Assembly: GCA_963575745.1 (NCBI GenBank)
Contig: CAUYUJ010000137.1
Location: 558,001 to 622,000 of the forward strand
Length of the DNA: 64,000 nt
Direction of reading: 5' to 3'
Source: Prorocentrum cordatum
Taxonomy: Eukaryota
Below the pieces are notes generated by a model. That model did not search any database. It worked only from the letters and a program-made list of their open reading frames with translations, and was not told where the DNA came from. Position numbers and translations under genes: made by a program. Positions 1 through 15,780 of the stretch are shown one piece after another (within the stretch, counting starts at the first letter, position 1; every line of letters begins with the position of its first letter).

Positions 1-1
1 C

Positions 2-1301
2 GTCAGCATCCGTGGCTGCGAAGCCACCCTCGCCAAGACGCGATACCGCATCACTGGCATTGCGGCACGCCACGCCACGCTGACCCAGCTGGCTAAGACT
101 CTCACGGGCCCGTCCGTCAAATGGGACTGTGAGGTCTACCGCACCGCCTGGGACCCAGCCACTTCGGCTCAGTTTGCCTTAGTGCGCGCCCATCGTCCCC
201 CACCCACATATACGGTACAGGTCGCAGGGTGCCCCATCCCGTGGAGCATCACCGAGGCCCCGTTGGCTGAGGTGGTGCCGAAGAGGGACAACGTTACCAT
301 TGTCACCCCTACCACTATCACAGAGCCTGTGACGCCGCAGCCCGTGGTGGCGGCTTCAGCCCCGCCACGGGCACACTCCTAACCAAAGCGGCCCAGAGCC
401 CTTACCTCCACGACCTCATGACTGCCACGCCCAAAGGCAAGGGCGTCGCACCGCTCCCGATCCCCAAGGAGGAGCCTCTAGCCAAGCGCCACCGATCCTC
501 CAGAGGGAAACGCGACGCCACGCCGCACGCAAGATCACACGGCGCCCCAGGCCGCAGCTCCTCTGCACCCCCGCACGGCACGGATGGAGCTGCCGAGCAG
601 ACGGCCGTCCAAGGACCAGGTGTCATGACCCGCAACTTGGCACGGTGGCGGCTGAAGGCGGGGGCCACACGGAAGGGGACGCTGCCACAGCCGCCGAGGT
701 ACCAGGCGACGCTGACGACGTCGAGATCCTCTCATCAGGTGATGAATTCAGCGTGGCATCTCGCGAACTGAACACCCTCGGCGAACGCTTCGCAACGGCC
801 CCTAAACTGTCAGACGCCGCCACGACCCGCATCCAACACATGGAACAACAGCACGAGCTGCTTGCCAACACGGTGGATAACATGCAGGTTCAGCTTGCGG
901 GCGTTCTCTCATCCCAGGCCACACTCACGGAGCACGTTTCAGGTTTGGAACGAGGGCTTGCCACCGTCGTCACTCAGCAACAGACGGCAACTACCGAAGC
1001 TGCTGCACTGCGTGGTGACATCCAGGCCCTCCTCGGGCACCTCACGGGGGGCACCATCCACCTGCCACAGGTGGCCACCCTCGAAACAAAAAAAGGAGGA
1101 ATACAGAAAAAAAAAAATAAAAAAAAAAAAAAAAAAAAAAAAAAGATAGAGAGAAAAAAAAAAAAAAAAAGAAGAAAACAAAAAGCATATAAAAAAAAAA
1201 AAAAAAGAAAAAAAAAAAAATAACAACAAATAATAAAAATAACATAAAAAGAAACAAAAAAAAAAAAATAAAAAAAAAAAACAAGAAAATACCAAAAAAA
1301 A

Positions 1302-1334
<33 letters not shown>

Positions 1335-1509
1335 CCCAAAACAAAAACAAACCACAGTAAACAAAGCAGCAATCAGATGCCGAATACCCGTGGCTGTCCT
1401 GCGGTGGAATAGGGAACCAGACACTTCTGCCAGGTCACCCCAGGGACGGGGCCCCCCAGGGGCTGACAAAGGCAAAGACAAGGGTCGGGTCACTCAGGAA
1501 CCCTATTGA
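2..1509 (+). pseudogene. ORF1/gag-like nucleic-acid-binding protein (RRM-like + coiled coil + degraded CCHC), frameshifted and partial
   Basis: Frame 2 from base 2 reads TRYRITGIAARHATLTQLAKTL...KWDCEVYR...LVRAHRPPP (RRM-like pattern). ORF 645-1085 has a heptad-rich coiled coil (IQHMEQQHELLANTVDNMQVQLAGVLSSQATL). 1391-1430 reads W-LSCGGIG-N-QT/HFC. Ends KGKDKGRVTQEPY-stop at 1509. Confidence 0.5.
1086..1372. repeat. A-rich low-complexity tract interrupting ORF1 (possible low-quality sequence)
   Basis: About 290 nt of mostly A inside GC-rich coding-like DNA. Confidence 0.85.
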
Positions 1510-1770
1510 AGGTGCCTCAGAGAGCCTGCCTCAGCCCTCCGAGGAAGCGCCTTCAGAGGCATCTCTTCTCTCTTCGCGTCGTATCTCTTTCTTGTCATAT
1601 CATGTCAGTTTTGGCAGCAGCACGAGCAAGCTATCTGGTGTAGGGACACCTGTCATCTTGCTGTGGGTGTGTTTGTTTCTATGTACATGAGCATGCAGGG
1701 GTATCTGAGGATGCGTGCTGACATGCAGCTTTTGGCTCATCGCTCGCGCCGCCCGCCAGGCCTCGCCATC

Positions 1771-4700
1771 ATGTGGCGCCTTGCCTGCAGCCTGGCCCTC
1801 CCCTCGCTAGCTGGAGCACACCCGTCTTCAGGCGGTGCGCCCCAGCATGGAGGTGAGGTTCTCCTGCGACACGCTGAACGTGGGACCCTTTTCTACCTCT
1901 ACGATGACAGCATCTACAAGTACGATCATTGCACCATTTTGGACCCGATCGTGAACGGCACCGTTGCCGCGGGTCCGTGCGGCATAGGCCAGGCACACAG
2001 TGGCGGCTTCAGCCCCGCTGTTGTGCCCCGCTATTGCCCTACGGGTCTCACCACTCCCCTGTGCGATAGGGGCGAACCCGAGGAGGACCCTGCTTTCTGG
2101 CACCTGATGATGATCCGCGCCCGGCTCATACCGTGTGCTGCGGCGTGGGCACCAGGTGAGGACAACCAGGACATGTTCTGGGCATGGCTCGAAGACTGCG
2201 TCCCGTACATCCTGGCGACGCTTCATCTGCCACAGCACGATCACCCCTTCCAGGAGGATTCTGAGGACACAACCGACGCCCTGCGTCAGCGCACCGCGGT
2301 CGACATGTGCGAGGACATCTGGCACAGAGCGGGCCCCGACAGGCAGCGCATCAACCGCAACCTCACTCGTATCCAGAGCAGCCGCGAGTACGCCACCCGC
2401 TACTTTGGCCTCCTTCTTGAATACCAGGGCGCTCGTGCCACGCTCGTCGGCCCTGAGGCTTTCACGGCACCTTTGCCGCCATACCTCTCACGGGCCCATG
2501 CTCTGCTGCCAAGAGGCCTCCCTCCACCCGACCAAGACGCCATGGCGTACCTCGCCGACGTGATTCTGCACCAACCGCCAGACATGCTTCCGCTCGTCGA
2601 GGCGGAGCTCGCCGCGGCGCCGATGGACGGCACCGATCAGGCCGCAGATGATCCCGTATCATGGCTGCTACAGCACATCGCGGCCAGCGATATCGGCAAC
2701 ATATCCATGGACTCGTTCCACGCGTCGGACGATAGCCAGGACGGCATTGATACCCAGGATCGAGACGGCACGACACCACCAGGCGACTCGGCCCAGCGTG
2801 ACCGCGACAGTGAACCCTACTTTGGGCACACCTCGTTGCACAGCAGTCCGCCCCACAACTCAGCTCAGGCCGACCCCGGCGCACAGCTCAACGACGCTGA
2901 AGGCGTCACTGCCGCTGACGCGACAAGCCATTCCACTGCGTCGCCAGCTCATGCCAGCCCGTGCAGTGGCGGCTTCAGCCCCGCTGCACCACTGGCTAGA
3001 CCTGGACATCCCCAGACCGCAGGTGGCAGCACCACGCCCTTCACCTCCGTACACCGTGACAACGTGACTGACTCCAACCCCAGTGCCATTGACCACTGGC
3101 AGGCCGACATCGACAACGACCCCATCGATGATGAGTACCCAGATGCCAGCGGTTCCCACGAGCCCCAGCACAGCGCAGCGGCATCACGACATTGTGGCTG
3201 CCTCATCTGCCTTTTTGTGGCCACGTACGCCATCGCGATAGCAATGCCGTACAAGGACCAGATCGATGGGTACTTGCCGACACCGAGCCGAGACCCCAGC
3301 TACCGACAACGACGACGACGCAAAGCGACGGCACCAGGCCCATCGGTGTCCACCACATCCCGACGCAAAACGACATACAATGTCACGTCCACATGGTGGG
3401 CCACTCTCAAATGGACCAGCGTCAAACTCAGAGATAGCGTCTCGGGCGGAGCCACTGCAGTCGGGGTCGGCCTCGGGGGTGTCCTGAAATGGGCCAGCGG
3501 CAAGCTAGGGGCTATTGCCACGGGTGGAGTCGTGTGTGGTCTTCAACTCGTCGGTGCCAAACTTCTTGCCCAGGGAGCTGTCGGACACGTAGGAGCCCGC
3601 ATCTGTGCGCGGGCCCTGGACTCATCCACAGCCCAGTGGTGCCTCCGCTGTTGCCAACCGAGCAGGAGGCCGCGCGATGAGGCCACATACAAAATGCCGT
3701 GCACGCTTGCCGACGAACACGACGACCAACACGTGCACTCACTCCGACATCCGCTGCTGCAGGAACACTACACCGCAGCAGTTGCCGCTGCAGTCGCCGA
3801 TGTCACCACCGCCACCACCGCCGCCATCGTCGAAGTCACTGCCGCCGTATCGCGAGCCTCGTCTGTCACACCAAGATCGACCAGCCCGTCCCCGCGAGAC
3901 GGCTCCAAAAGCGGCGCGGCATTCGGTAACCTACCGACTAACGAGGATGCCACAGCACACGGCAGCGACACCGAGGCAAGGGAAACACGTGAGTGCACCC
4001 ACGATAGCCCGTGGTCCATCTTCCGACATGCTGATGCTCGTGGCTCCTCTCCCGACGCGGACACCCAACCACCGCGACGGCGAGCACGCTATGCATCACC
4101 CAACAGGCCCCAGGCGCCTTCAGGCCCTGGTATGCCTTACACAGCCCTCAAGCCACCGACACGCAACCTACGCAACACTATCCAGCGCGACCCAGCGGTC
4201 CCCGTGCCGCCGAAGAGCATACTTAACGCCCTGTATCAAAACGGCTTTGCGCTTGGTAACAGTGGCGTGTCTACAGAGGACATCAAAGACGCTCTGCGAC
4301 TCCACGACCATCCTCGATTTACTCATGATCCCACACTCCAAGCGCTGGGGCCGTGGACGGACATCATGCAGAGGCCACCGAACCGCCTCACTTGGGTGCT
4401 GGAAGACTCGGGCGGGAACTCAGGCGAGACAATCTTCCCATACCTCACGTGGGACCTCCGCCAACCCACCACCGACGCGCCCACTGTCTTCTGGCATGGG
4501 ACCCGCGGCGACCTTGCGGCCCGTCTTGCTGCCAGTGGGGGGCACCTCTTGCCAGGTCCCCGCCGTGAAGCGAAGGGCCGAACTGGCACCAACGTTGGCC
4601 GCACGTACGCGAGCGTGCACCCTTCGCTGGCCGCGTGGTACGCAATGCCGCCCCACCCGCCCTACAGTCTTGAAGACGACACCCTCGCGTGGGGACCCAT

Positions 4701-4881
4701 CGCACTCTGGATGGGCGAGGCCACCCAACCACCGCGCGGGGAAAACAGGCACAACTACGTGAAAGGGGAGGCCCACGGAGCGCGCCTCATTTACCCTCGG
4801 GTCCTGAGCCTCCTCATCCGCATGGACTGGTGTGCCCCCACAGAAGCTGCTTCCAGGTGCCGTGCCCTTCCACACGCCTAG
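1771..4881 (+). CDS. Element cargo ORF: signal-peptide-like N-terminus, hydrophobic/Gly-rich segments, C-terminal PARP/ADP-ribosyltransferase-like domain
   Basis: Open frame 1663-4881. ATG 1771 gives MWRLACSLALPSLAGA. Hydrophobic CLICLFVATYAIAIAM and GGATAVGVGLGGV segments. C-terminal VFWHGT (4486-4503)...GRTYAS (Y 4606)...LAAWYA (Y 4639). Confidence 0.6.
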   Translation: MWRLACSLALPSLAGAHPSSGGAPQHGGEVLLRHAERGTLFYLYDDSIYKYDHCTILDPIVNGTVAAGPCGIGQAHSGGFSPAVVPRYCPTGLTTPLCDRGEPEEDPAFWHLMMIRARLIPCAAAWAPGEDNQDMFWAWLEDCVPYILATLHLPQHDHPFQEDSEDTTDALRQRTAVDMCEDIWHRAGPDRQRINRNLTRIQSSREYATRYFGLLLEYQGARATLVGPEAFTAPLPPYLSRAHALLPRGLPPPDQDAMAYLADVILHQPPDMLPLVEAELAAAPMDGTDQAADDPVSWLLQHIAASDIGNISMDSFHASDDSQDGIDTQDRDGTTPPGDSAQRDRDSEPYFGHTSLHSSPPHNSAQADPGAQLNDAEGVTAADATSHSTASPAHASPCSGGFSPAAPLARPGHPQTAGGSTTPFTSVHRDNVTDSNPSAIDHWQADIDNDPIDDEYPDASGSHEPQHSAAASRHCGCLICLFVATYAIAIAMPYKDQIDGYLPTPSRDPSYRQRRRRKATAPGPSVSTTSRRKTTYNVTSTWWATLKWTSVKLRDSVSGGATAVGVGLGGVLKWASGKLGAIATGGVVCGLQLVGAKLLAQGAVGHVGARICARALDSSTAQWCLRCCQPSRRPRDEATYKMPCTLADEHDDQHVHSLRHPLLQEHYTAAVAAAVADVTTATTAAIVEVTAAVSRASSVTPRSTSPSPRDGSKSGAAFGNLPTNEDATAHGSDTEARETRECTHDSPWSIFRHADARGSSPDADTQPPRRRARYASPNRPQAPSGPGMPYTALKPPTRNLRNTIQRDPAVPVPPKSILNALYQNGFALGNSGVSTEDIKDALRLHDHPRFTHDPTLQALGPWTDIMQRPPNRLTWVLEDSGGNSGETIFPYLTWDLRQPTTDAPTVFWHGTRGDLAARLAASGGHLLPGPRREAKGRTGTNVGRTYASVHPSLAAWYAMPPHPPYSLEDDTLAWGPIALWMGEATQPPRGENRHNYVKGEAHGARLIYPRVLSLLIRMDWCAPTEAASRCRALPHA

Positions 4882-4884
4882 GGC

Positions 4885-5925
4885 ATGGGCGACTGCGCGC
4901 ACGCCCTCCACATCGCTGGCTACGATCATCCAGATCTCCGTGAGGCGGCTGAAGCTCACGACCAGGAAGCTAGCACCAGGCGCAGACCAGCCATCGCGGC
5001 AGCATGGCCACCGCCGCAGGCACTATACTCGCCAGAGGCAGCGCAAATATGGGCCAAACAGCACTACGACACGGAAGCAGCCACCAGGGATGACCCTAAC
5101 CAGCCCCGCCCACGCGTCTCGCTTCACATGCTCCAGCTGGACCCGAAACCACTCATCGACCTGGTGTACACTGGCTTGCAAGCTGTCCCCGTGCGGGGGC
5201 ACCCTGACGCACGCGGATCGCGCCCCAGCGGCTCCAGCCCTGGGGCCGCGTCGGGCCCACCACGCACGTACAAGTCAGGCACAGCCCTGGCGCACAGTCC
5301 AGACCGCTCATCGACGTCATCTGGAGCCGACGAACGCCGTACGCCTTCCCTCATCAGCGCGGCCGCCGCCCTCGCCCGAGGCCGTGCCCGCCCACGACGA
5401 TCTGCCTCTCGCTCGTCACGGCAGAGTGGCGAGAACTCCACCTCAGACAACAATGGCATCGAGACGTGGGAGCACATTGTGACGGAAGAGGAGCCGACTG
5501 CCTACCACGTCCTCGCCTACCACGTCCGTGATGTGCGGACCCGTGTCAATGCCCCTGGCATCGAGGTCTGGCTTGACCCTGGTGATCACCACGATGGTGC
5601 CTACTTACCGTGGGGGACGACAGTCATGGGCCACCGCGTTATCGACCCTGCGGTGGCGGGGCGGGACGGCTGGGTCATCCTCCACCACGACCACGGCGAC
5701 ACCACTACTAAGCTCTGGCACCGACCCAAGTCCACGTCAAAGCGGACGACACCTGGCGCACCGTCATGGTACCAGCGGACATGGGGCCCCAGTGGATCAG
5801 GTGCCATGCCGAGGACGCTCGCCACCCCGCCGAGGTTGTCCGCACTACAGGCCAATCCTGGTTTGCTGACGTCTGGCCCTTGTGGGATCGCCCGCGACCC
5901 CACCCAGACGACCAGGCACAAATGA
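4885..5925 (+). CDS. Element cargo ORF (346 aa), possible SH3-like segment; probably shifts into frame 3 near 5712
   Basis: Same frame as the upstream ORF, separated only by TAG-GGC. Segment VRTRVNAPGIEVWLDPG...LPWGTTV...DGWVIL loosely resembles SH3b patterns. Confidence 0.4.
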   Translation: MGDCAHALHIAGYDHPDLREAAEAHDQEASTRRRPAIAAAWPPPQALYSPEAAQIWAKQHYDTEAATRDDPNQPRPRVSLHMLQLDPKPLIDLVYTGLQAVPVRGHPDARGSRPSGSSPGAASGPPRTYKSGTALAHSPDRSSTSSGADERRTPSLISAAAALARGRARPRRSASRSSRQSGENSTSDNNGIETWEHIVTEEEPTAYHVLAYHVRDVRTRVNAPGIEVWLDPGDHHDGAYLPWGTTVMGHRVIDPAVAGRDGWVILHHDHGDTTTKLWHRPKSTSKRTTPGAPSWYQRTWGPSGSGAMPRTLATPPRLSALQANPGLLTSGPCGIARDPTQTTRHK

Positions 5926-6278
5926 GCATGCGCTCCCGCCTTTACCAGGACGCTGGTCTTGCCTACAGTGTCGATTCCAATGCTGTCAGTACTGTGCGGC
6001 TCGCCGCAACACGCAGCTCGGCACCTCGGGCCAACCAACGTGCCCAGACTGCGCCCGCAGCGGACTGCGTACACTTATGGACTGGTCCACGGACTACTCG
6101 TGCAACAGTTGACGTGTGCATACAGCACCAACTACAGGGACTCCGACACATGCTGCCTGTCCAGCAGGTGCCCCCATCCCCCCAGTCCACACAGCCTGCT
6201 CGACGTCCGTGCCACAGGGATGCCGCCGCACATCCTTGCCCGCCAATTCGGCAACGCGCCAGCCCTCCACGACCTTAA
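5712..6278 (+). CDS. Frame-3 segment with possible ubiquitin-like (beta-grasp) domain
   Basis: Open from 5712: TQVHVKADDTWRTVMVPADMGPQWIR...SRLYQDAGL...STVRL, pattern comparable to MQIFVK...TLSDYNI...STLHL. Confidence 0.3.
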   Translation, partial: ALAPTQVHVKADDTWRTVMVPADMGPQWIRCHAEDARHPAEVVRTTGQSWFADVWPLWDRPRPHPDDQAQMSMRSRLYQDAGLAYSVDSNAVSTVRLAATRSSAPRANQRAQTAPAADCVHLWTGPRTTRATVDVCIQHQLQGLRHMLPVQQVPPSPQSTQPARRPCHRDAAAHPCPPIRQRASPPRP

Positions 6279-9200
6279 GGAACCCCCCCGAGCGCCTTCA
6301 GGCCCCGGGGGGGAACCACCACAACCAGGGCAAGCAGGCTACCAGGGTCAATGGTACTTCCCACCGCAGCCGCGGCGCGTCCCCAGGCAGGGACTGCCTG
6401 ACGGCACAAGGCGGCCACCTGGATTCACAGGAACGGGGATGCCCGAAGAACCTTCCCCCGACCAACCGCTTTGGAGGGAAGGCTACGTGCTCTTCAGCCC
6501 CCACCAGGCCCTCAAGGAGGAATTCACCTTCAACAAGACGGTCCGCCGACCCTACTCCCTAGCCATCACCAACATGTACAGGGACCGTGTCACGGTCAGG
6601 ACCGTCTGCGAGTCGATCGCCGAGCGCATCCACATTACCCGCACCCGCTGGCGAGATGTGGTACTGTACTGGGACGCCGAGGGTGGCCCTGGGCCTCAAG
6701 CCCTCGACTACGACATGCGACTCTGCGACGCGATGGTGAGCCGTGCCACGACCGAAGCCGAGCTAAACCACGACCGCAGCAACCGTGGTAGCTTCTGCCT
6801 CTATGGACCAGCGCACCAGCGAGCTGTCAACATCACGGCGATCTCCGAGCCGCAGAACATCGACTACATGGAGCATGCGCGGCGATACTCACCCGTAGGG
6901 GGGACCTACCCTGACCACGCCTTCGAGCACGTCTATCGGGGCTGGCAGCGGCCCGACGTGCCCACCATCCTCCCCGACACCCGTCCCCTCTCGAGAGCCG
7001 ACTGGCAGCGTCACCAACAGCACCAGCAGCGCAGCCAGCAGCGGGACCAACGTGACGCAGGACAGCAGGGCACACCACGCTACCGCTCCCCTGCGCGAGT
7101 CCCGACAGGCGGTAACACGGCCTACGACGGGGTTGCCGCCAACTACCGTGGCCCCATAGGTGCCAGGCCCGCGGCTGCTGGAGCAGCCGCCTCCAGCTAC
7201 GGCCACGCCCCCCACGCCAGGGTACACCCAGCGGTCCTCGGCTACCCGCGTGCACCCGTGCAGGCCCTAAGGGCCACCTCGCCAGTGCCAGGGTCCACGC
7301 GCGCCTGGGGCCTTTACTCAGGCCGACATGATGGCACCTCCAGAAACCAGCCCGCAGTGATAACCCCTGCGGCTTCAGCCCAGGGGGCTGCAACAAACCG
7401 TGGCAGGGCTGGGCGCCCCGAAGGACGGCGTGATGCGAACGTGCGCGCTTGGCAACCGCGCCAGCACACGCCCCCGCCAAACGTGGCTGCAGCACTGCGC
7501 CCTGCCCAGGCAAAACCTGCCCCACCTGAGCGGGAGAGGCAGCCGCTTACCCCGCTCGTCCTCACGCACATCCAGGCGCATCACAGCGCCCTCCCGCGGC
7601 ACAGCGAGGGAAGCGCCCACCACGTCAGCCCCCGCCCCGACGCTGTCGACCCCGACCAGGCCACAGCCACGGCGGAGGGCGGCACAAGCGCCTCTCGCCA
7701 GCCCAGCCCATCACCCTGCGCGGCGCCGATCCGATCCCCGAGCCGGGCGGATTCCGAGCGCGCTAATGCCCAGGCGACCTCGCCACGCGACCGCCACACG
7801 GGCGGGCGCGTCCCGCGCAGCAGGACCTGCAGCCGCCACAGTTCACGCAAGGCCCCAGGGAGCTCCACGAGCTCGCCGCCTCGCGAGACTCAGGCTGATG
7901 GCCAAGTCCCCGAAGTGGTGCCACGCTTCGGAGCCAGCGTCATCGAACCTGGCCAGGCGGTTGACCTCGAGCCGACGCCGTCCACGGACCACGAGCCGCC
8001 GCTGACCACCCGCGTGATCGTCCCCATCGACGAGGCGCCAACCTTCGACCCGTTCAAGAACAAGTACCGTGTCAAGAACCTGGTGGCGGGTTTCGGCGGT
8101 GGCTCACCGCTCTCACCTCAGAGTCGGGGCGGAGCCCCCGCCACCTCAGCTGCTGCCGCGGCAGCGGCGGCCCCGCGGGGAATCAGCCCTGTCCGCAACG
8201 TGGGCCTCACGGCAGCGGGCATGGACGAGGCCCAGCGCCAGGCCTCAGACCGTGCTGCTGGAGCTGTTCCACCAGATGCTGCTCATCAAGATACTGACGG
8301 GGCGGGCGCGCCACCGCAGGAGGGACCAGCGGTGTCGCGTGCGCAGTATATGCGCGTGCGTTGTGCCGCCGCCGCGCCTAGCCGCCGCCGCTGGTTCGCT
8401 TTTGATTTTGTGTTCGGCAGGACGGATCGAGGAGTCGCCTCCCTCTCCCTCTGCTGCCGTCTCACCTCTCCTCCCCTCGTCCCCTACGGTACTGGAGTGA
8501 GGAGGATTTTTCGTGACATTTTTACTGACGTTTATGAACCCCCCCTGGCGCGGTGCCGACCGTGTCCCGCCTATACTTCTGGCCTGACGGCGGCTTCAGC
8601 CCCGGTCAAGCTAATCCATAGGAACGCCATGAGCTCCTACTGTGGCCAAGCCTCCTACCTGGGCGAGGGTCAGGCTGACCTTCACCGTGCGGGGCGTGCA
8701 AACCCCAGTTCCACCGATGGAGACGGGCCAGGTCGCTCCTTACACCTCGTCAGCCTTAACATCACCAGTCTCTCAGCGAATTGGCCAACCATCACCGCCC
8801 TTGGTGTCGACCACAACGCCGCAGTCATAGCACTGCAGGAGACCCGACATGCCAAGCCGACTAGGCAAGCCTTCGCTACCAGCGCCGCCAATCCACTCCA
8901 CGGAGGATACCACGCCAGTCTTGGACCTGACCTTGATCTGGCGCGAGCCCAGCGCAGAGCTGCCCACGGCGGCACAGACCACACCGTCGTGGGCAACACT
9001 GGCGCCTCGGGAGGGGTCGCCATCCTCTCTAAGGATGCCATTGTCGACTCCACTGTCGACGACAATGCGCACTGTATCGTCGCCCTCAAGGCCAAGAAAA
9101 GATGGCACGAGGTCTTTCTCCCGCTCTGCACTCAACACCGCCGCAGGCGGCGACGAAACAACCACGGGCCCGAGGGGATCTACATAGCGAGCCTCTACGG

Positions 9201-9648
9201 GATTGCTGGAGGAGACAGCACAGCTCTTTTTCGGCTCGCTGACTGCGCCGCCGCTAGGGTCGGCTCAGCCCCCTACTTCATCTGCATGGACGCCAAAACG
9301 AACATCGACGACAATCCACACCTTCTGCACATGTTGCAGCACGGATGGTTCAACGTTGCTGAGGGCACACCAGACCACACCATGCACGCCACCCCAATAC
9401 AAGGAAAAAGCATCTCACACCCTGAGACTAGTAAGGGAAAAAAGCAAGAACCCTACCATGATACAACCCCGACATACAAATATACACATACGGCAATATC
9501 CCTGACTGGGACCGCGTCACCAAGTGCCCCCGCACTTCGCGCATCGATTATATCATTGCCAACCAAGCGGCGCGATCCCTTGTCACCGACTTCTGCTACC
9601 TTCGCGACTTGCCAGCGAAGTCTCATGTTGGCCTGCAGGTCACGCTAG
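5959..9648 (+). CDS. 1229-aa ORF: ubiquitin-like segment, long disordered linker, then N-terminal part of APE endonuclease
   Basis: TVRTVCESIAERIHI...VVLYW...ALDYDMRLCDAMV (about 6590-6740). APE motifs LVSLNITSL, IALQETR, GGVAILSK, IYIASLYG, FICMDAK in 8740-9300. Confidence 0.65.
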   Translation: MPTVSIPMLSVLCGSPQHAARHLGPTNVPRLRPQRTAYTYGLVHGLLVQQLTCAYSTNYRDSDTCCLSSRCPHPPSPHSLLDVRATGMPPHILARQFGNAPALHDLKEPPRAPSGPGGEPPQPGQAGYQGQWYFPPQPRRVPRQGLPDGTRRPPGFTGTGMPEEPSPDQPLWREGYVLFSPHQALKEEFTFNKTVRRPYSLAITNMYRDRVTVRTVCESIAERIHITRTRWRDVVLYWDAEGGPGPQALDYDMRLCDAMVSRATTEAELNHDRSNRGSFCLYGPAHQRAVNITAISEPQNIDYMEHARRYSPVGGTYPDHAFEHVYRGWQRPDVPTILPDTRPLSRADWQRHQQHQQRSQQRDQRDAGQQGTPRYRSPARVPTGGNTAYDGVAANYRGPIGARPAAAGAAASSYGHAPHARVHPAVLGYPRAPVQALRATSPVPGSTRAWGLYSGRHDGTSRNQPAVITPAASAQGAATNRGRAGRPEGRRDANVRAWQPRQHTPPPNVAAALRPAQAKPAPPERERQPLTPLVLTHIQAHHSALPRHSEGSAHHVSPRPDAVDPDQATATAEGGTSASRQPSPSPCAAPIRSPSRADSERANAQATSPRDRHTGGRVPRSRTCSRHSSRKAPGSSTSSPPRETQADGQVPEVVPRFGASVIEPGQAVDLEPTPSTDHEPPLTTRVIVPIDEAPTFDPFKNKYRVKNLVAGFGGGSPLSPQSRGGAPATSAAAAAAAAPRGISPVRNVGLTAAGMDEAQRQASDRAAGAVPPDAAHQDTDGAGAPPQEGPAVSRAQYMRVRCAAAAPSRRRWFAFDFVFGRTDRGVASLSLCCRLTSPPLVPYGTGVRRIFRDIFTDVYEPPLARCRPCPAYTSGLTAASAPVKLIHRNAMSSYCGQASYLGEGQADLHRAGRANPSSTDGDGPGRSLHLVSLNITSLSANWPTITALGVDHNAAVIALQETRHAKPTRQAFATSAANPLHGGYHASLGPDLDLARAQRRAAHGGTDHTVVGNTGASGGVAILSKDAIVDSTVDDNAHCIVALKAKKRWHEVFLPLCTQHRRRRRRNNHGPEGIYIASLYGIAGGDSTALFRLADCAAARVGSAPYFICMDAKTNIDDNPHLLHMLQHGWFNVAEGTPDHTMHATPIQGKSISHPETSKGKKQEPYHDTTPTYKYTHTAISLTGTASPSAPALRASIISLPTKRRDPLSPTSATFATCQRSLMLACRSR

Positions 9649-10062
9649 ACCTCAGTCGCCTCGACATACGGCCCGACGTCTTCTTGCCCCCACGCCCTAC
9701 CCTCCCGACGATGGAGCTCATGAGGGTCACGAGCTGCAGGCACTAGGGACCCTCATCGCTGGGCAATATCAGGACCGCATGGAACAGGCCGACACACGCG
9801 ACGACGTGGAGCGCATGTTCGCCCTGGCTAACGAGGCCAGTCATGAGTACCATCTCACCCGTCTGCGCGACCTGCCACCTCCACCGCCCGACCACCCCAA
9901 AAAGAAGCCCCCCACCATGCACGGGCTCACGCCCACGTTCGAAGATCGACCAGTTGTCCCCCGCGCCTTCCCCACCTACGGAGCTTCCACGATACACATG
10001 AACCGACTGCGCAAGCTCCATCGGCAACTCTGTGAGCTCCGTTTCATCGGACAGCACATCAT

Positions 10063-12843
10063 TTGGATTGCCGTGCTATCCCGCCGTACCTCGCGCAGCG
10101 CATCGACTGCACGTGGACCGCGGCCCGCCTCTTATGCCACAAGCTGCGCCCCACGGTTCTCCTAGACTTCCCCGAGGCCTGGACCCCCGACGAGCCAGTG
10201 CCTCACGGAGAGCACCTCGACGTTTTGATCCAACACCTCGACTTGGAGCTGGCGCGACGTGCGAACCGTGCCAAAGCTGAACGCATCAAGATATGGGCTG
10301 AGGGCGTCCGCGAGCCAAGCGGGCGAAAGGCGGCCATATACGCACGGGCTGCTGACAGCTCGCCCACGGCGTATCTCCGCACGCCTACCACACCTGACGA
10401 TACGCAACTCCACTGCGACACAAACGCCTTTAAACCTGACGAAGCTTGCACGGACGACAGCGACGCTGACACCGAAGCTGGCGGCTTCAGCCCCAGCGAC
10501 GGTAGTTCGCCCGACACGGACAGCGACGAAGACCACACTCGTGAACCACCACCTGCGCAAGTCCCCGACATCCTCCCTTCCAACGCCATTGTTGCTAACA
10601 CCAAGGACATGCTGAAGCTCATGGTCGACACCTGGGAGCCCATCTTGGGCAGGTACCGTGCACGTGCGGGACATGACGCCGAAGCCATGCCGACGTGGGC
10701 CGACTTCTACGACGAGTACCGACAGGAGCTGCCTACGTCATCACCAGCTACCCCTTTCCACCTCACCGACGACCAACTCATCCACTTCATTCGCACCCGT
10801 TCACCGCGCCGCGCGGGGGGACTGGACGGCTGGACTACAAAGGAGGCTAAGGAGTTACCCGACGACATTCTTCGCCTCTTCGCCAGCGTCCTACGCGCTA
10901 TGCAACGCACTGGCACCATCCCAGAACCCCTCCTCCACGTGCCAAACCCGTGCCTCCGAAAAGGCCGAGGCGAACTCCCAACGGACCAACGACTTCTCTC
11001 GGTGCTTTCCGTTTGGATGTATGCGTGGGAAGCGCCAGCATACCGCAGCCTCACGGACTGGCGGAAAGGATGGACCCACGCCACGAGTTTTGGCGCTGTC
11101 CCCAAAGCTACCATTGGGGACGTCAGCACCTCTCTTGCCCTGCGCATCGAGCACGCCAGGGCCTTACTCCTTCCCTTAGCTGGAGCTGCCCTGGACCGAC
11201 AGAAGTGTTTCGACTACCTCATCACGGACATCTGCCTTAACCTTGCGCGTCACGCGGGGTGCCCCCAAGACATCGTTACTGTCCGCAGAAACTTCTACAG
11301 TCGCCACAAACGCTACATCCGCATGAACGGTGCGTACTCTAAGGAACTGGCCAGGACAAACGGTCACCTCCAGGGAAGCTCTTGGTCCCTGGACGACATT
11401 AAGCTGCTCATGTTTGTGTGGACCAAGAGACAGCATCGATACGTTCCGCGATCACTCAGCACTACCTTTGTTGACGACAGCAACTCCACTACTCACACCG
11501 CGCCTGAGTTGCAGAAATCTCTAGATGAAACCGCCAAGTTTGATCGATTTTCAGGTCAACGCATTCACCCTGGCAAAGTGGCGGGGTGGGCGCTCACCGA
11601 CGAGCTTCACACCGCCGTTACCCAGCTCACTCTGGCGGAACGGCCCATACGCGTGGTCGACTCCTTTAAGCTCGTCGGGAGTTACATCAACGCCGAGGCA
11701 GCGCCGGCTCCAGCCGCGCTTAACCTCACGGCCACCGCTGACGCCCGAGTTCGCAGGGCGACTAGTCGCCTGCCGCGCATTGGCAAGCTCCCATCACCGA
11801 TGCTTATTAAGGCGCGGCACGCCCGTTCCCTTGCTGCCAGCGTCTGTACCACGGGCAACGACATTCAAGCCCCATCAGGCCCCGTCAAAACTGCCTACAA
11901 CCATGCCCTTAAGGCGGCTATCCGCCCCAAGGGAAACAGGTGGGTCGAGTTTTGGACCCTCATGGCCGTGTGCGTCCCAGGACACGCCCTGGAGATTGAC
12001 GCCATTATGCAGCGTGAAGTCTTCCTGTGTCTGCGGCGACAGGTTAACCGCGACGCTACTCTCAGCGGTCTCGTCAGGGATCTCCAACACCATGTCCAGA
12101 CCCTTTTCGGGGGAGGACCTGTAGGACGACTTGTCCAGACGCTTCAGCAGCTCCGTTGGACCTGGCCCACATTTGGCATCATGTACGACGACTGGGGCTG
12201 TCAGATCAGTTGGCTGAACCTACCCCAAAACTCCTTCCTTCACATGCTGCGAGCCTCACAACGCAGAGCCTTTCTGAGAAAAATCAAGCCACGGCGTCAT
12301 GACCTTGGACACCTGGCCTCTGTCAGACAGGGCCTCGACCTCTTCGCCAGCACGTGGCTCGCCCGAACGAAAGGAGCAGCCAAATGCAACGCATGCAGCT
12401 GGCGCTCCTCCTTAACTACCTGTCGGGCGGGGACCACACCCAACAGCGACGATCCCGATCAAACACGTCCGCTGACCCCAGCCCCATCTGCCGATACTGC
12501 GACGAGGAAGAGGAAACACAGGAGCACACTGTTCGCGACTGCAAGTGCTGGGCCCGAGAAAGAGTCCCTCTTACCACCCTCATCAGTGACGAGCAGTGGG
12601 CCCGTCTTCCGCCGCACACAAGACACTGCGGGCTCTTCGATGAAGACCCAGCCCTCCTCGACCTGCAGGCCGACCTCGCGAGGGTCCCGCTACCTCAGCC
12701 CATACCGCGGCCCCCACCTGAGGGAGATCCTGCGGCTTCAGCCCAGGACTCCTACACCACCTACCTTGACCACGACACTGGTTGGACATGGGTCTACGCC
12801 GCCACGGACGGTGCATGCACCAACCAAGCCATCCCATTGCTAG
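10063..12843 (+). CDS. Non-LTR reverse transcriptase domain
   Basis: AGGLDGW, QRLLSVLS, LDRQKCFDYL, GHLQGSSWS, TFVDDS (FVDD 11467-11478), IHPGKV, FKLVGS: LINE RT motifs in canonical order. Confidence 0.92.
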   Translation: MDCRAIPPYLAQRIDCTWTAARLLCHKLRPTVLLDFPEAWTPDEPVPHGEHLDVLIQHLDLELARRANRAKAERIKIWAEGVREPSGRKAAIYARAADSSPTAYLRTPTTPDDTQLHCDTNAFKPDEACTDDSDADTEAGGFSPSDGSSPDTDSDEDHTREPPPAQVPDILPSNAIVANTKDMLKLMVDTWEPILGRYRARAGHDAEAMPTWADFYDEYRQELPTSSPATPFHLTDDQLIHFIRTRSPRRAGGLDGWTTKEAKELPDDILRLFASVLRAMQRTGTIPEPLLHVPNPCLRKGRGELPTDQRLLSVLSVWMYAWEAPAYRSLTDWRKGWTHATSFGAVPKATIGDVSTSLALRIEHARALLLPLAGAALDRQKCFDYLITDICLNLARHAGCPQDIVTVRRNFYSRHKRYIRMNGAYSKELARTNGHLQGSSWSLDDIKLLMFVWTKRQHRYVPRSLSTTFVDDSNSTTHTAPELQKSLDETAKFDRFSGQRIHPGKVAGWALTDELHTAVTQLTLAERPIRVVDSFKLVGSYINAEAAPAPAALNLTATADARVRRATSRLPRIGKLPSPMLIKARHARSLAASVCTTGNDIQAPSGPVKTAYNHALKAAIRPKGNRWVEFWTLMAVCVPGHALEIDAIMQREVFLCLRRQVNRDATLSGLVRDLQHHVQTLFGGGPVGRLVQTLQQLRWTWPTFGIMYDDWGCQISWLNLPQNSFLHMLRASQRRAFLRKIKPRRHDLGHLASVRQGLDLFASTWLARTKGAAKCNACSWRSSLTTCRAGTTPNSDDPDQTRPLTPAPSADTATRKRKHRSTLFATASAGPEKESLLPPSSVTSSGPVFRRTQDTAGSSMKTQPSSTCRPTSRGSRYLSPYRGPHLREILRLQPRTPTPPTLTTTLVGHGSTPPRTVHAPTKPSHC

Positions 12844-14147
12844 CACGAGTGGGCTACGGCGTCTACTACGGCATCGACCACCGCATGAACTACTGTGCAC
12901 GCGTTCACGGCATTACGCAGAACGCACAGCTTGCGGAGACCCTCGCCATTGTCCACCTCACGGCATGTGCTGAACGGCCCGTGCACGTTTTCGTGGACAA
13001 CCAGGCGGTGGTTGATGGTTTCCAAAGGATCATCGACGGACACTCACCACCGCAGGGCACGCACGAGGAGCTCTGGGAAAAGATCCACCGATGCGTCATG
13101 GCCAAGCCCAACATGTTCCGCGTCGAGAAAGTCGCTAGCCACCAGGGCGACATGGGCATCGACCTCGGTCTCATCGGGCCCATCGCGGAGGAGTTCAATC
13201 GTCAGGCTGACGCCCTCGCCACAACGGCGGCACGTACTCATAACCTTCCAGACGACATTGTCGAAGCTGCCAAATCAAGACATCGCCAAGCGACCGTGCT
13301 TCATGGAGTCGCTGTCGCCATCTACGAGCGTAGACACCGTACACTCCCCCTCCCACACCGCAGGGCTGGGTTCACAGCTGCGGAACAAAACAAAATGGAA
13401 CCAAATCCCCTGCTGTCTGACCAGGCACCACCCGCGGCTGGACCAGACATCCCACAGAACCCGGACGAGCTCTGGGCCGAGGCCCAACGGGCGATATTCG
13501 ACGCACAGGAGGACGACCCGTTCGGCTTTGGTGGGGGCCTGGACTTCCTGGGCGACGGGCCAGCCAGCGCCAACCCTGCCCCGTCGGGTACCCGCACGGC
13601 GCCCCCGACTCCGCCATCGAGAGCGGCAGCGCACCCACATGACAACGCAGCTCATTTTCAAGACGCTGACGAACAGGAGGATGACCTGTTCAGCTTCGGT
13701 GGGGGATCGGACGCTTTGGACGACGGACCAGCCAGCGAAAACCCCGCCCCGTCGGGAAACCTCTCGATCCCTACTGCGACTCCGTCCCCGAGAGCGGTAT
13801 CGCCCACATACGATGATATCGGCCACCTCCAAGACGCCGACCATGACCTGGGTGACCCCCGCGGACTGAGTGGCATGGAGGACGCACCGCCGATACCACA
13901 CGCTGCCGACCATGCCGCCCTACCGAGACGCCAACCTTCTACACGACCGACCTCAGAGCCCTTGCACGGCATCATGACTGGTCCCACCGCGCAAACCACT
14001 CCGCCCCCCCACCGCCGGCAGCCCGCGGGGGCGGCTTCAGCCCCCCGCAGGGCACTAAACCAGACAGGCCCTCGTGCCCCGTCCACGCTTCCATCGTTGC
14101 TGAGCGAGAGGAAGCGGCTCTCCCGACCTCTCGGGGCGTGGCCCTAG
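12354..14147 (+). CDS. CCHC zinc knuckle plus RNase H domain of pol
   Basis: CRYC-x8-H-x4-C (12489-12542). RNase H catalytic set ATDGAC (D 12807), LAETLAI (E 12936), FVDNQAV (D 12996), KVASHQ, NRQADALA (D 13209). Confidence 0.9.
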   Translation: MARPNERSSQMQRMQLALLLNYLSGGDHTQQRRSRSNTSADPSPICRYCDEEEETQEHTVRDCKCWARERVPLTTLISDEQWARLPPHTRHCGLFDEDPALLDLQADLARVPLPQPIPRPPPEGDPAASAQDSYTTYLDHDTGWTWVYAATDGACTNQAIPLLARVGYGVYYGIDHRMNYCARVHGITQNAQLAETLAIVHLTACAERPVHVFVDNQAVVDGFQRIIDGHSPPQGTHEELWEKIHRCVMAKPNMFRVEKVASHQGDMGIDLGLIGPIAEEFNRQADALATTAARTHNLPDDIVEAAKSRHRQATVLHGVAVAIYERRHRTLPLPHRRAGFTAAEQNKMEPNPLLSDQAPPAAGPDIPQNPDELWAEAQRAIFDAQEDDPFGFGGGLDFLGDGPASANPAPSGTRTAPPTPPSRAAAHPHDNAAHFQDADEQEDDLFSFGGGSDALDDGPASENPAPSGNLSIPTATPSPRAVSPTYDDIGHLQDADHDLGDPRGLSGMEDAPPIPHAADHAALPRRQPSTRPTSEPLHGIMTGPTAQTTPPPHRRQPAGAASAPRRALNQTGPRAPSTLPSLLSERKRLSRPLGAWP

Positions 14148-14921
14148 CGGCTCCAGCCCTGGGGTCGCGTCGGCCCCTCCAGCCACCCTTCAAGGGTGAC
14201 GGACGTCAGCGTACAGGGTCCCGCACTACGCTAGTCCACCATTTGGACAGGCGTACCGAGGACCTCGCCTCTGTCTCGAGGCCCACGGCTGCTGGCACTG
14301 AGCAGCCACCCCTCACCGACCGCGAAACCGAGCTGTCACAGGCTATGGCTGCCCTCCAGCAGAGGTGCTTAGCTCTCGCCGCGGACCTCGCCGCCGCCCA
14401 AGCTCGTCAAGGCCCTCTACTCCAGCGCCTCCACAGCGCTGGGCGAGCCTTTGCCGAGCTGCTCACGGCCTCGCCCGATGGTGCCGTGCCGTCACTCAAC
14501 ATCCAAGCTATGTTGTCATCGCTCCGCGGCGCTCCACCTGGTGCCCCGCGCTAATCTCCTCCTTTCTGCCTGCCCGTGTGTACGCGTGGCTCCGCGTCCA
14601 CGGTGTCAGGGCGTGGGGGCGGGGGGTGCCCCGTCACTGCGCGCCGCATAGCGGCCAAGCGCCCAACTGGCGGTCTGCCAAGCCGCCTAGCCACGTGTCA
14701 GCACGTCGCCTTTCTTGTTGGGGCCTTTTTTCCTCACGCGGTCTGACAGGTGAGATCATCATCGTCTGTCCGCCGTCTGTAGCGTCTGTCGCACTGCGCC
14801 GGGGGAGGGGGTTTTTTGTTGCCCGCCCTCGTATCTAAAGGCTGCACCGCCGCAAATAGTGCATGCGAGTTGTCGCACCGCAGTGCGCCTCGCGGACGGA
14901 CCCTGGTCCGCCTACTTGTCC

Positions 14922-14923
<2 letters not shown>

Positions 14924-14975
<52 letters not shown>

Positions 14976-14988
14976 TTCTCTCTCTATA

Positions 14989-15041
<53 letters not shown>

Positions 15042-15358
15042 GCTCTCTCGCTCTCTCTTGCTCTCTCTCGCTCTCTGTCGCTCTCTCTCGCTCTCTCTCT
15101 CTCTCTCTCGCTCTCACTCGCTCCCTCTCGCTCTCTCTCGCTCTCCCTCGCTCTCTCCCGCTCTCTCTCTCTCTCTCTGCTCTCTCTCTCTCTCTCTCGC
15201 TCTCACTCGCTCCCTCTCGTCTCTCCTCGCTCTCCCTCGCTATCTCCCGCTCTCTCTCTCTCTCTCTCTCATCGCTCCTCTCAGGAGAGTGTCTCTCACT
15301 TCTCCTCACTCATTCGCTTCTCTCGCCGCTCTCTCTCTCTCTCTCTCTCTTTCTCTCA

Positions 15359-15391
<33 letters not shown>

Positions 15392-15691
15392 ACTCTCTCT
15401 TCTCTGCTCCTCTCTCTCTCTCTCTCTCTCTCCTCTCTCGTCCCTCTCTCTCTCCTCTCTCTCGTCTCCGTCTCTCTCTTCTCTCTCTCTCTCTCTCTCT
15501 CCTCCCCTCCCCCCCCCCTCTCTCCACTTTTCTCTCCCTCATCCTCTCTCTCTCTCTCTCCCTCTCTCTCTCTCTCTCTCCATCTCTCCCCTCAACTCCC
15601 TCTCTTCTATCTCTATCCTCTCTTCTCTTCTCTCATTTTTCTCCCCCCTCCTCTCTCTCTCATCTCTCTCTTCTCATCTTCCTCTTCTCTG

Positions 15692-15724
<33 letters not shown>

Positions 15725-15744
15725 TCTCTTCTCTTCGCTTCTCT

Positions 15745-15780
<36 letters not shown>

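What the first reader, a model, noticed from the sequence alone, without database searches (positions are those of the whole stretch)
1..14924. >14.9-kb LINE with about 7 kb of cargo coding sequence between ORF1 and pol
Typical LINEs are about 5-7 kb with ORF1 next to APE-RT. Here ORF1-like sequence (1-1509) and APE-RT-CCHC-RNase H (8629-14554) flank long co-oriented, apparently intronless ORFs, and the shared hairpins argue for one transcription unit. Cargo capture by dinoflagellate LINEs is established for cytosine methyltransferases in Symbiodinium; this cargo set is different.
Basis: partly seen in the sequence, partly recalled or inferred. Interest (0 to 1): 0.78.

Follow-up and report, generated by a model that had tools for sequence, protein, structure and literature searches.

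The report
Giant hairpin-studded LINE, dead copy
This is a broken copy of a very abundant, unusually long (over 16 kb) jumping gene of the LINE type from a dinoflagellate, in which the extra 7 kb is not separate cargo genes but a conserved 2,300-codon front part of the copying enzyme itself, and which carries a row of evenly spaced look-alike hairpins.

Summary
Bases 1-1509 are the C-terminal 390 codons of a roughly 850-codon ORF1, cut by the window start. Bases 8707-14551 hold endonuclease, reverse transcriptase, a zinc knuckle and RNase H. A (TC)n tail starts at 14924.

The 7 kb between them is real, conserved coding sequence. It has 33 relatives by exhaustive search, at 32-92% identity, and their fragments read through both apparent stops. 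It lies in the same reading frame as the endonuclease, so it is an N-terminal extension of ORF2 (about 4,230 codons in all), not a set of captured genes.

One domain of the extension is weakly PARP-like. The rest matches no known family.

Thirteen hairpins (core C-GGC-UUCA-GCC, covarying stems) lie on the sense strand only, about 1.1 kb apart, through ORF1, extension and pol. There are none in the other 49 kb.

In four public runs, contigs cover every part of bases 1340-14923.

This copy is dead: one nonsense codon, about ten frameshifts, a 98-bp insert and an A-rich expansion.

The scan noted a similar 16-kb hairpin-studded LINE on other DNA of this genome (e1-7626980). No sequence look-up linked the two.

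Capture of the extension from the host is unproven.

The parts
1..1509 (+). C-terminal ~390 codons of ORF1 (about 850 codons in relatives), cut by the window start. Read in frame 2 (2-340), frame 1 (340-621), frame 3 (621-1452) and frame 1 (1452-1506). Stop TGA at 1507-1509. Predicted coiled coil at about 770-1085.
   Evidence: P0041 and P0042 cover it at 83-87% identity, mapped by tblastn. No Pfam family in P0041 or P0042.
1086..1350 (+). A-rich tract inside ORF1, a copy-specific expansion or insertion and not a poly(A) tail.
   Evidence: TRF row 1107-1332. P0041 has 16 residues here and then the same last 27 residues as the window.
1510..1770 (+). Spacer between the ORF1 stop and the conserved ORF2 Met. 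It is open and in the same frame as both ORFs. Protein-level likeness to relatives starts at about 1609.
   Evidence: P0027 maps to 1609-1965.
1771..8706 (+). N-terminal extension of ORF2, about 2,310 codons. Features in order: signal-peptide-like start MWRLACSLALPSLAGA; conserved block 2050-2650; hydrophobic segments at 3184 and 3511; PARP-like domain; small domain 5356-5715; Cys-rich motif 5911-6110; conserved domain 6154-6975; low-complexity linker 7000-8580. Damage: TAG at 4879; one base missing at each of 5716, 5911 and 6110.
   Evidence: 33 relatives. Fragments tile 1609-7113. P0007 is 59% identical. Frames. Majority letters in other copies. Hydropathy.
4342..4848 (+). PARP-like (ADP-ribosyltransferase-fold) domain, weakly supported. 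A helical subdomain follows to about 5091.
   Evidence: AlphaFold model with pLDDT 64.5. Foldseek best E 0.033, PARP rows. VIA ranks 1-15 are all PARP domains, Z 3.2-4.2. Pfam PARP at E 0.0047 in 1 of 12 members.
8707..9710 (+). Apurinic-type endonuclease, split by a 98-bp insert at 9386-9483.
   Evidence: Pfam Exo_endo_phos E 5.1e-5, 23.6 bits against a cut-off of 24.5. tblastn of P0005. Joint 9385>9484 in 4 of 4 runs. L002 reads through.
10582..12372 (+). Reverse transcriptase, with motifs LDRQKCFD, LQGSSWS and FVDD. One base is missing at 9664 and at 10056 upstream of it.
   Evidence: P0004 46% and P0005 53% identical. Pfam RVT_1 E 0.011, below the cut-off. Motifs read.
12354..13232 (+). 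Zinc knuckle (about 12489-12555) and RNase H (12801-13232), in frame 3 after a missing base at 12394.
   Evidence: Pfam RNase_H E 2.6e-7, 31.4 bits against a cut-off of 25.8; zf-RVT E 0.034..
13233..14554 (+). C-terminal tail of ORF2. It holds an internal 89-bp duplication (13500-13588 and 13668-13756), a missing base at 14040, a predicted coiled coil and the stop TAA at 14552.
14555..14923 (+). 3' untranslated region.
   Evidence: Covered in all 4 runs.
14924..16063 (+). (TC)n 3' tail of the element.
   Evidence: TRF gives 587 units. Loose ends reading CTCTCT... behind 14922 in runs X5 and X3.
340..14170 (+). Row of 13 hairpins, each 34 nt, starting at 340, 1993, 2959, 4104, 5218, 6282, 7359, 8580, 10471, 11694, 12722, 14021 and 14137. 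The core is C-GGC-UYCA-GCC (GCC-UUCA-GGC at 4104 and 6282), with a variable outer stem.

Best explanation
Bases 1-16063 are the 3' 15-16 kb of one defective copy of a high-copy LINE (an endonuclease-type non-LTR retrotransposon) of a dinoflagellate.

The intact element, inferred from relatives and from the majority letters of other copies, is at least 16.4 kb long and has two genes in one frame.
- ORF1 has about 850 codons. It matches no known family and ends in a predicted coiled coil.
- After a single TGA comes ORF2, of about 4,230 codons.
- ORF2 begins with a roughly 2,310-codon extension. In order it holds a signal-peptide-like start, a conserved block, two hydrophobic segments, a PARP-like domain, a Cys-rich motif, a second conserved domain and a long disordered linker.
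- ORF2 then continues into endonuclease, reverse transcriptase, zinc knuckle, RNase H and a predicted coiled-coil tail.

Inferred: the element copies itself by target-primed reverse transcription from a (TC)n-tailed RNA.

Thirteen look-alike hairpins, about 1.1 kb apart on the sense strand, mark the whole transcript. Also inferred: they are protein-binding sites on the RNA, most likely for ORF1p, that help this very long RNA to be recognised and coated in cis.

The 'cargo' is therefore a built-in, selected part of ORF2p. Its PARP-like domain may bind NAD or ADP-ribose, or modify a host or element protein. That function is a guess.
For: ORF1:
- P0041 (853 aa) and P0042 (847 aa) match window 2-1506 in frames 2, 1, 3 and 1. 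They end at the window's TGA at 1507.

One ORF2:
- Frame 1 is open over 1510-4878, 4882-5922, 5926-9645 and 10036-12840.
- P0019, P0022, P0014 and P0037 carry Cys or Asn where the window has TAG at 4879, and they continue into the next stretch.
- P0007 spans 5356-7113.
- Frames 3 and 2 of 5712-6130 carry the part of P0007 that frame 1 lacks.
- The frame changes 1>3>2>1, 1>3, 3>2, 2>1, 1>3 and 3>2 fall exactly where many contigs of other copies have one more base (behind 5716, 5911, 6110, 9664, 10056, 12394, 14040) or lack 98 bp (9386-9483).
- L002 reads the endonuclease through the 98-bp site.

Conserved coding:
- 33 proteins at E <= 1e-3, 22 of them at E <= 1e-10, 32-92% identical, tile residues 34-1121 of the first stretch.
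- GC2 is lower than GC1 and GC3 across 1801-7200, as in the RT.

Pol:
- RNase H is above Pfam's cut-off.
- The endonuclease scores 23.6 bits against a cut-off of 24.5, and the RT reaches E 0.011.

Unity and abundance:
- All 13 covariance-model matches of 23 bits or more lie on the + strand within 340-14170. The next match scores 15.9 bits.
- All 30 bins of 1340-14923 are covered in 4 of 4 runs, with 77,915, 5,994, 949 and 1,921 contigs laid.
- Summed depth of the extension relative to pol is 0.74, 0.66, 1.01 and 0.74 (my arithmetic; the tool warns that this depth is no copy number).
- 20 runs of 14 studies hold 24-74% of the sampled words.
- (CT)n loose ends lie behind 14922 in X5 and X3.
Against: - No single outside record was seen that joins extension and pol. 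The protein fragments stop at 7113 and start again at 8707, and the laid contigs are 100-380 nt long. The physical link therefore rests on this copy's own open frame 5926-9645, on the hairpin row and on even cover.
- The 5' end and target-site duplication lie outside the window, and no genome is held.
- P0005, a 53% RT relative, starts with a Met only about 45 residues before its endonuclease. Close relatives may therefore lack the extension, or that copy may be broken.
- The RT and endonuclease Pfam scores are below the curated cut-offs. A profile search of solved structures found nothing.
- The PARP likeness is weak. Z is at most 4.2, Foldseek E is at least 0.033, and a profile of the domain found no solved chain. 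The residue at the catalytic Glu position is mostly Arg or Lys (my placement of it is by eye).
- Some of the one-base gaps may be assembly errors.
Confidence: 0.8

Rival explanations
1. The 7 kb was captured from host genes (true cargo). One or more cellular genes, for example a PARP-family gene, were picked up by the LINE and later fused to ORF2.
For: - The PARP-like fold and motif.
- P0005 seems to start just before its endonuclease, so the extension may be a later gain.
- There is a precedent for DNMT capture in Symbiodinium LINEs (PMC5890265, passages read).
Against: - No free-standing cellular homologue was found. All 33 relatives are unnamed fragments that tile like the element.
- No Pfam family for the rest of the extension.
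- The extension is in frame with the endonuclease and carries the element's own hairpins.
Confidence: 0.3
2. Nested or adjacent unrelated elements. On this view the middle 7 kb is another transposon or gene inserted between a LINE ORF1 and pol, or bases 1-1350 are the poly(A) end of a separate retrocopy.
For: - The A-rich tract at 1086-1350 looks like a poly(A) tail.
- The middle part has no Pfam hit.
Against: - ORF1 relatives read across the A-rich site to the stop at 1507.
- The 5926-9645 frame joins extension and endonuclease without a stop.
- The hairpin row and its spacing run on across all the borders.
- No internal repeats that could be termini or duplications.
Confidence: 0.03
3. The long frames of the middle part are not translated. 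On this view they are chance open frames of GC-rich DNA or relics, and only ORF1 and pol matter.
For: - High GC makes long open frames more likely.
- Large parts are low-complexity.
- No RNA or protein evidence was obtained.
Against: - Blocks are conserved at 32-92% protein identity in 33 relatives.
- 59% identity over 300 residues in P0007, with an open frame there.
- Codon-position GC pattern.
- A conserved start Met with a signal-like peptide in 5 of 5 sequences that cover it: the window, P0011, P0017, P0026 and P0027.
Confidence: 0.05
4. The hairpins act at the DNA level or as host-defence targets, not as binding sites for the element's own proteins. Examples are pause sites on the cDNA or marks read by a host silencing system.
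For: - The complement can fold as well.
- Other transposon families of this genome are reported to carry one-strand hairpins (earlier notes e1-7628073 and e1-7630429, not tested here).
Against: - Sense-strand-only orientation, a conserved loop and compensatory stem changes fit a selected RNA element.
- Nothing here tells RNA from single-stranded DNA.
Confidence: 0.3

Closest known systems
SymbioLINE-Dnmt, LINEs of Symbiodinium with a DNA methyltransferase (de Mendoza et al. 2018, PMC5890265; passages read, supplements not opened)
   Same: - A dinoflagellate LINE with the order Exo_endo_phos, RVT_1, RNase_H.
- No poly(A) tail.
- Extra coding capacity that is under selection.
   Different: - There the extra domain is a DNMT in ORF1. 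Here ORF1 relatives have no DNMT hit, and the extra 2,300 codons are the front of ORF2.
- There CpG is depleted. Here CpG observed/expected is 0.87-0.97, like the flank at 0.89.
- 'Hairpin' occurs 0 times in that paper's main text.
L1-type LINEs (human L1 ORF2p: endonuclease and RT; RNase H in some clades)
   Same: - Two ORFs.
- An APE-type endonuclease before the RT, and a zinc knuckle after it.
- Inferred target-primed reverse transcription.
   Different: - ORF2 is about 3.3 times longer than human L1 ORF2p (about 1,275 residues, recalled).
- ORF1 has about 850 codons and no recognised domain.
- A (TC)n tail instead of a poly(A) tail.
- A periodic hairpin row.
- No sequence match to solved L1 ORF2p at E <= 0.01.
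LINEs with an added enzymatic domain in ORF2, such as TRAS elements of Lepidoptera with a viral helicase domain (PMC5563155, search listing and abstract only)
   Same: A LINE ORF2 enlarged by a foreign or extra domain and kept through evolution.
   Different: - A different domain, and far more added sequence (about 7 kb).
- The added part is N-terminal to the endonuclease.
Dispersed packaging signals of single-stranded RNA viruses (named as closest known by earlier notes e1-7628073 and e1-7630127; not read here)
   Same: Many short stem-loops with a shared loop motif and variable stems, spread along a long RNA and also inside coding sequence.
   Different: - No capsid is known here.
- The spacing is far more regular (coefficient of variation 0.22-0.35).
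- Binding has not been tested.

Membership tests
LINE (APE-type non-LTR retrotransposon) | Reverse transcriptase with catalytic motifs A, B and C | tested here: met
   - Pfam RVT_1 at E 0.011, 15.8 bits, below the cut-off of 29.6, over profile positions 55-192.
- Relative P0006 scores E 3.1e-5.
- LDRQKCFD, LQGSSWS and FVDD read. The motif definitions are recalled.
- The score alone would be inconclusive.
LINE (APE-type non-LTR retrotransposon) | Apurinic-type endonuclease N-terminal to the RT | tested here: met
   - Exo_endo_phos at E 5.1e-5, 23.6 bits against a cut-off of 24.5.
- It lies upstream of the RT in the window and in P0005 and P0006.
LINE (APE-type non-LTR retrotransposon) | No LTRs or TIRs; a simple-repeat or poly(A) 3' tail shared by copies | tested here: met
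   - No terminal repeats in the self-comparison.
- (TC)n at 14924-16063.
- (CT)n loose ends in 2 of 4 runs.
LINE (APE-type non-LTR retrotransposon) | Target-site duplication and a defined 5' end | not testable with these tools
   The 5' end lies before base 1 of the window, and no genome is held.
LINE (APE-type non-LTR retrotransposon) | Many dispersed copies | tested here: met
   - 949 to 77,915 contigs laid per run, with all 30 bins covered in 4 of 4 runs.
- 20 runs of 14 studies hold part of it.
- Dispersal in the genome was not seen directly.
SymbioLINE-Dnmt | Cytosine methyltransferase domain in ORF1 | tested here: not met
   No DNMT or any other significant Pfam family in the full-length ORF1 relatives P0041 and P0042, or in the window's ORF1 pieces.
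PARP / ADP-ribosyltransferase superfamily (for window 4342-4848) | ART fold | tested here: inconclusive
   - Model pLDDT 64.5.
- Foldseek best E 0.033 with TM 0.19-0.31.
- VIA ranks 1-15 of 48,161 chains are all PARP domains, but Z is only 3.2-4.2.
PARP / ADP-ribosyltransferase superfamily (for window 4342-4848) | H-Y-E (or R-S-E) NAD-binding and catalytic residues | tested here: inconclusive
   - WHGTR and R-x-Y are conserved.
- Pfam PARP at E 0.0047 over that stretch in 1 of 12 members.
- At the place I take for the catalytic Glu, 1 member has E and the others R, K or A. The placement is by eye and the triad is recalled.

The most novel reading that the evidence does not exclude
This is a LINE lineage that has turned ORF2p into a protein of about 4,200 residues. 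The protein would have a membrane-directed, PARP-like N-terminal machine. The lineage measures out its 16-kb RNA with a conserved hairpin every ~1.1 kb. Each hairpin would seed binding of the element's own protein, so that only its own very long transcript is coated and copied. That would be a packaging 'ruler' not known for any retrotransposon.
Probability: 0.2. Interest if true: 0.85.

Novelty: new variant of a known kind. Interest (0 to 1): 0.62.

Why it matters
LINEs are thought of as minimal two-gene elements of 5-7 kb. This one keeps about 7 kb of extra, conserved coding sequence inside its polymerase gene and still reaches very high copy number in a widespread marine protist. It may therefore account for a visible share of a giant dinoflagellate genome.

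Two points can be tested directly:
- Does a retrotransposon encode a PARP-like protein, when in vertebrates PARP-domain proteins such as ZAP and TASOR are host restriction factors for LINEs?
- What do evenly spaced sense-strand hairpins do on a long retrotransposon RNA?

My four paper searches listed no LINE-encoded PARP. The one paper whose text I searched, PMC5890265, does not contain the word hairpin.

Tried and rejected
- **My first idea, rejected.** I took bases 1-1085 plus the A-rich tract as the poly(A) end of a separate upstream retrocopy. ORF1 relatives read across the tract to the stop at 1507. tblastx of 1-1100 against the rest gave nothing meaningful.
- **Whole genome.** Not held, so there was no copy census, 5' end or target-site duplication.
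- **Second copy in the window.** None found.
- **The search for related loci with the cargo domain.** Nothing in metagenome contigs or viral contigs.
- **The search for related loci with the RT.** Only a 1,001-bp contig (L001) and a 1,451-bp contig (L002). With alignment A3 the call ended in an error and was not repeated.
- **Protein Atlas.** No usable hit for window 2-379 or 6154-6990.
- **AlphaFold on 6070-7002.** With 2 sequences it gave pLDDT 33.4, so the model was not searched.
- **Profile searches of solved structures.** Nothing for the PARP-like domain or for pol.
- **Rfam.** No family on 1-17000 or on the whole window.
- **RNA evidence.** No RNA holder is listed among the runs, so nothing can be said on expression.
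- **Depth.** It is summed over contigs and is no copy number. I use it only to say that all parts are covered.
- **Earlier findings by sequence.** Nothing for P0001, 1510-4878 or 1-1085.
- **RT phylogeny.** Not made, because no reference LINE sequences were on hand.
- **Supplements of PMC5890265.** Not opened. They may give lengths of Symbiodinium LINEs.
Full report
**What is there**

On the + strand, frame 1 is open over 1510-4878, 4882-5922, 5926-9645 and 10036-12840. Frames 3 and 2 carry 12303-14144 and 13856-14551.

Pfam finds three domains in the expected order:
- Exo_endo_phos, E 5.1e-5, 23.6 bits against a cut-off of 24.5.
- RVT_1, E 0.011, below the cut-off.
- RNase_H, E 2.6e-7, 31.4 bits against a cut-off of 25.8, with a weak zf-RVT hit just before it.

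The RT motifs LDRQKCFD, LQGSSWS and FVDD can be read directly (the motif definitions are recalled). A (TC)n array of 587 units follows at 14924-16063. The whole of 1-14924 has C>G and A>T skew on the + strand. The window holds no second copy and no genome is held.

**ORF1**

I first took 1-1085 plus the A-rich tract 1086-1350 for the poly(A) end of another retrocopy. That is wrong.
- A search for longer relatives of window 2-379 gave 4 proteins. Among them are P0041 (853 aa, 87% identical) and P0042 (847 aa, 83%), both starting MAPK....
- tblastn maps P0041 residues 448-853 onto window 2-559 (frame 2), 340-621 (frame 1), 396-1094 (frame 3) and 1417-1506 (frame 1). The match ends at the window's TGA at 1507.
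- P0041 has 16 residues where the window has the A-rich tract. The tract is therefore an expansion or insertion inside ORF1.

About 450 codons of it lie before the window start. ORF1 has no Pfam family.

**The 7 kb**

It is real coding sequence.
- An exhaustive phmmer search with 1510-4878 found 33 proteins at E <= 1e-3 (22 at <= 1e-10, 10 at <= 1e-30). They are 32-92% identical and all are short fragments.
- A word-based search with 5926-8706 found P0007, 59% identical over 300 residues.
- By tblastn the fragments tile 1609-7113 without a break.
- GC at codon position 2 is lowest across 1801-7200, as in the RT.

It is one frame, not several ORFs.
- At the window's TAG at 4879, P0019, P0022 and P0037 have Cys and P0014 and P0020 have Asn. 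P0019, P0020 and P0022 run on well into the next stretch, and P0014 and P0037 for a few residues more.
- The TGA at 5923 is not in the true frame. Between about 5716 and 6110 the part of P0007 that frame 1 lacks is found in frame 3 (5712-5910) and then in frame 2 (5900-6110, with the Cys-rich motif).

The stretch 5926-9645 then joins the conserved domain, a low-complexity linker and the endonuclease in one open frame of 1,240 codons. The '7 kb of cargo' is thus the N-terminal part of ORF2, about 2,310 codons. I count from the Met of MWRLACSLALPSLAGA at 1771, which is kept in all 5 sequences that cover it.

**Other copies**

- 20 public runs of 14 studies hold 24-74% of the sampled 31-mers of 1500-11400.
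- I laid the contigs of four runs on 1340-14923 at 85% likeness. All 30 bins were covered in all 4 runs, with 77,915, 5,994, 949 and 1,921 contigs laid.
- The ratio of summed depth, extension to pol, is 0.74, 0.66, 1.01 and 0.74. This is my arithmetic, and the tool warns that such depth is no copy number.
- Many contigs carry one more base behind 5716, 5911, 6110, 9664, 10056, 12394 and 14040. They skip 9386-9483 in 4 of 4 runs.
- These are exactly the places where the window's reading changes frame. Allowing for them, ORF2 runs from 1771 to 14551, about 4,230 codons.
- L002 is a 1,451-bp contig filed under a bacterial MAG. It is 88.7% identical to 9484-10734, lacks the 98 bp and reads the endonuclease through that site. 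It has a frame break of its own further on.
- Loose ends behind 14922 read CTCTCT in X5 and X3, so the (TC)n tail belongs to the family.
- Some one-base gaps sit in short runs and could be assembly errors.

**What the extension contains**

Pfam finds nothing at E <= 0.1. Two hydrophobic segments (starting at 3184 and 3511) and long Pro/Ala/Ser/Arg-rich linkers are seen.

The best-conserved domain (window about 4342-4848) has the motifs WHGTR, PGPRRE, R-x-Y, AAWYA and LIYPRV. The evidence that it is PARP-like is as follows:
- A 12-sequence AlphaFold model reached pLDDT 64.5.
- Foldseek's best rows are almost all PARP catalytic domains, but weak (E 0.033 and up, TM 0.19-0.31).
- The Foldseek-independent search ranked PARP domains 1-15 of 48,161 chains, at Z 3.2-4.2, which is low.
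- Pfam PARP matches 1 of 12 members at E 0.0047, over the WHGT...Y stretch.
- A profile search of solved chains found nothing.

I read this as a PARP-like fold with about 60% probability. Catalytic competence is open.

The second domain (6154-6975) could not be modelled (pLDDT 33.4). The Atlas gave nothing.

**Hairpins**

- The 17-mer GGCGGCTTCAGCCCCGC occurs 6 times against 0.01 expected.
- The 10-mer core occurs exactly 8 times, all on the + strand and all inside the element.
- Each folds as an outer stem, a bulged C, then GGC-UYCA-GCC.
- Over 11 sites chosen by core alone, 81% of cells pair against 63% in shuffles. Ten of 13 pairs change on both sides, and 0 of 500 shuffles reach the covariation score.
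- A covariance model run over the whole window without filters found the 11 training sites plus two new ones, at 4104 and 6282 (23-25 bits). Their inner stem is flipped to GCC-UUCA-GGC.
- All 13 are on the + strand between 340 and 14170. The next match scores 15.9 bits, E 0.42.
- The gaps are 1653, 966, 1145, 1114, 1064, 1077, 1221, 1891, 1223, 1028, 1299 and 116 nt. Such evenness arose in 52 of 200,000 random placements for all 13, and in 0 of 200,000 for the first 12.
- The core lies in three codon phases (GGFSP, AASA, PSGPG), so selection acts on the nucleic acid.
- Relatives keep the signature at five sites: GGFSP in P0041, P0010 and P0021, and PSGPG in P0008 and P0007. P0042 has GGGGSSP instead.
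- L002 keeps the hairpin at site 10471 with a compensatory U-A to C-G change.
- More distant RT relatives (P0004, P0005, L001) lack it at that site.

**Reading**

This is one defective copy of a high-copy LINE of at least 16.4 kb, with ORF1, a single TGA and a giant ORF2 in the same frame.
- Shown: the architecture, the conservation, the cover by other copies and the hairpin row.
- Inferred: target-primed reverse transcription, RNA-level protein binding by the hairpins and any activity of the PARP-like domain.

Capture of the extension from the host remains possible. P0005 seems to start just before its endonuclease. But no cellular homologue was seen.

A dinoflagellate origin fits two exact copies of the spliced-leader core at 25070 and 28307 (the motif is recalled).

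**Comparison and novelty**

SymbioLINE-Dnmt (PMC5890265, passages read) shares the host group, the pol order and the lack of poly(A). It places a DNMT in ORF1 and shows CpG depletion. Neither is seen here.

My four paper searches listed no LINE that encodes a PARP-like domain. The 10 listed of 11 papers concern host PARP-domain factors.

Earlier notes of this scan describe a 16-kb hairpin-studded LINE with about 2,300 extra codons on another piece of this genome (e1-7626980). They also describe a 26-kb LINE with other extras (e1-7628204). Sequence look-ups found no look-alike, so whether this is the same family is open.

I rate it a new variant of a known kind.

Noticed in passing
window 25070-25084 and 28307-28321 (- strand), inside the repeat 23860-31400: Two exact copies of the dinoflagellate spliced-leader core CCATTTTGGCTCAAG (0.22 matches expected at up to 2 mismatches). 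They lie in a tandemly duplicated unit of about 3.2-3.4 kb that is 95% alike. Rfam finds no RNA family there.
   Followed up: partly
window 1507-1770: ORF1 and ORF2 are in one frame, separated by a single TGA and 87 open codons. Protein-level likeness to relatives (P0027, FWQQHAQVIW) starts upstream of the conserved Met. Stop-codon read-through is possible.
   Followed up: partly
window 1340-14923 (table 1): Places where copies differ are strand-asymmetric. T>C (218-284) and C>T (166-226) outnumber A>G (90-124) and G>A (78-102) in all four runs, by more than base composition explains.
   Followed up: no
window 9383-9514: The 98-bp, AT-richer insert in the endonuclease is a variable spot. Run X1 shows a dozen different joints with different filler letters here.
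   Followed up: no
window 16067-16906: A 152-bp unit repeated 5.5 times at 98% identity lies directly after the (TC)n tail. Further 11-, 28- and 81-bp arrays lie at 17359-18176.
   Followed up: no
window 13500-13588 and 13668-13756: An internal 89-bp duplication (81% alike) in the C-terminal tail of ORF2. It gives two copies of a peptide like EDDxFxFGGGxDxLxDGPASxNPAPSG.
   Followed up: no
L002 (1-1451): A fragment of this eukaryotic LINE, 88.7% identical to the window, is filed in a genome bin labelled as a myxobacterium. This is most likely contamination of the bin.
   Followed up: partly
window 38474-39367: A long array of short tandem repeats, seen as many offset self-matches at 84-90% identity.
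   Followed up: no
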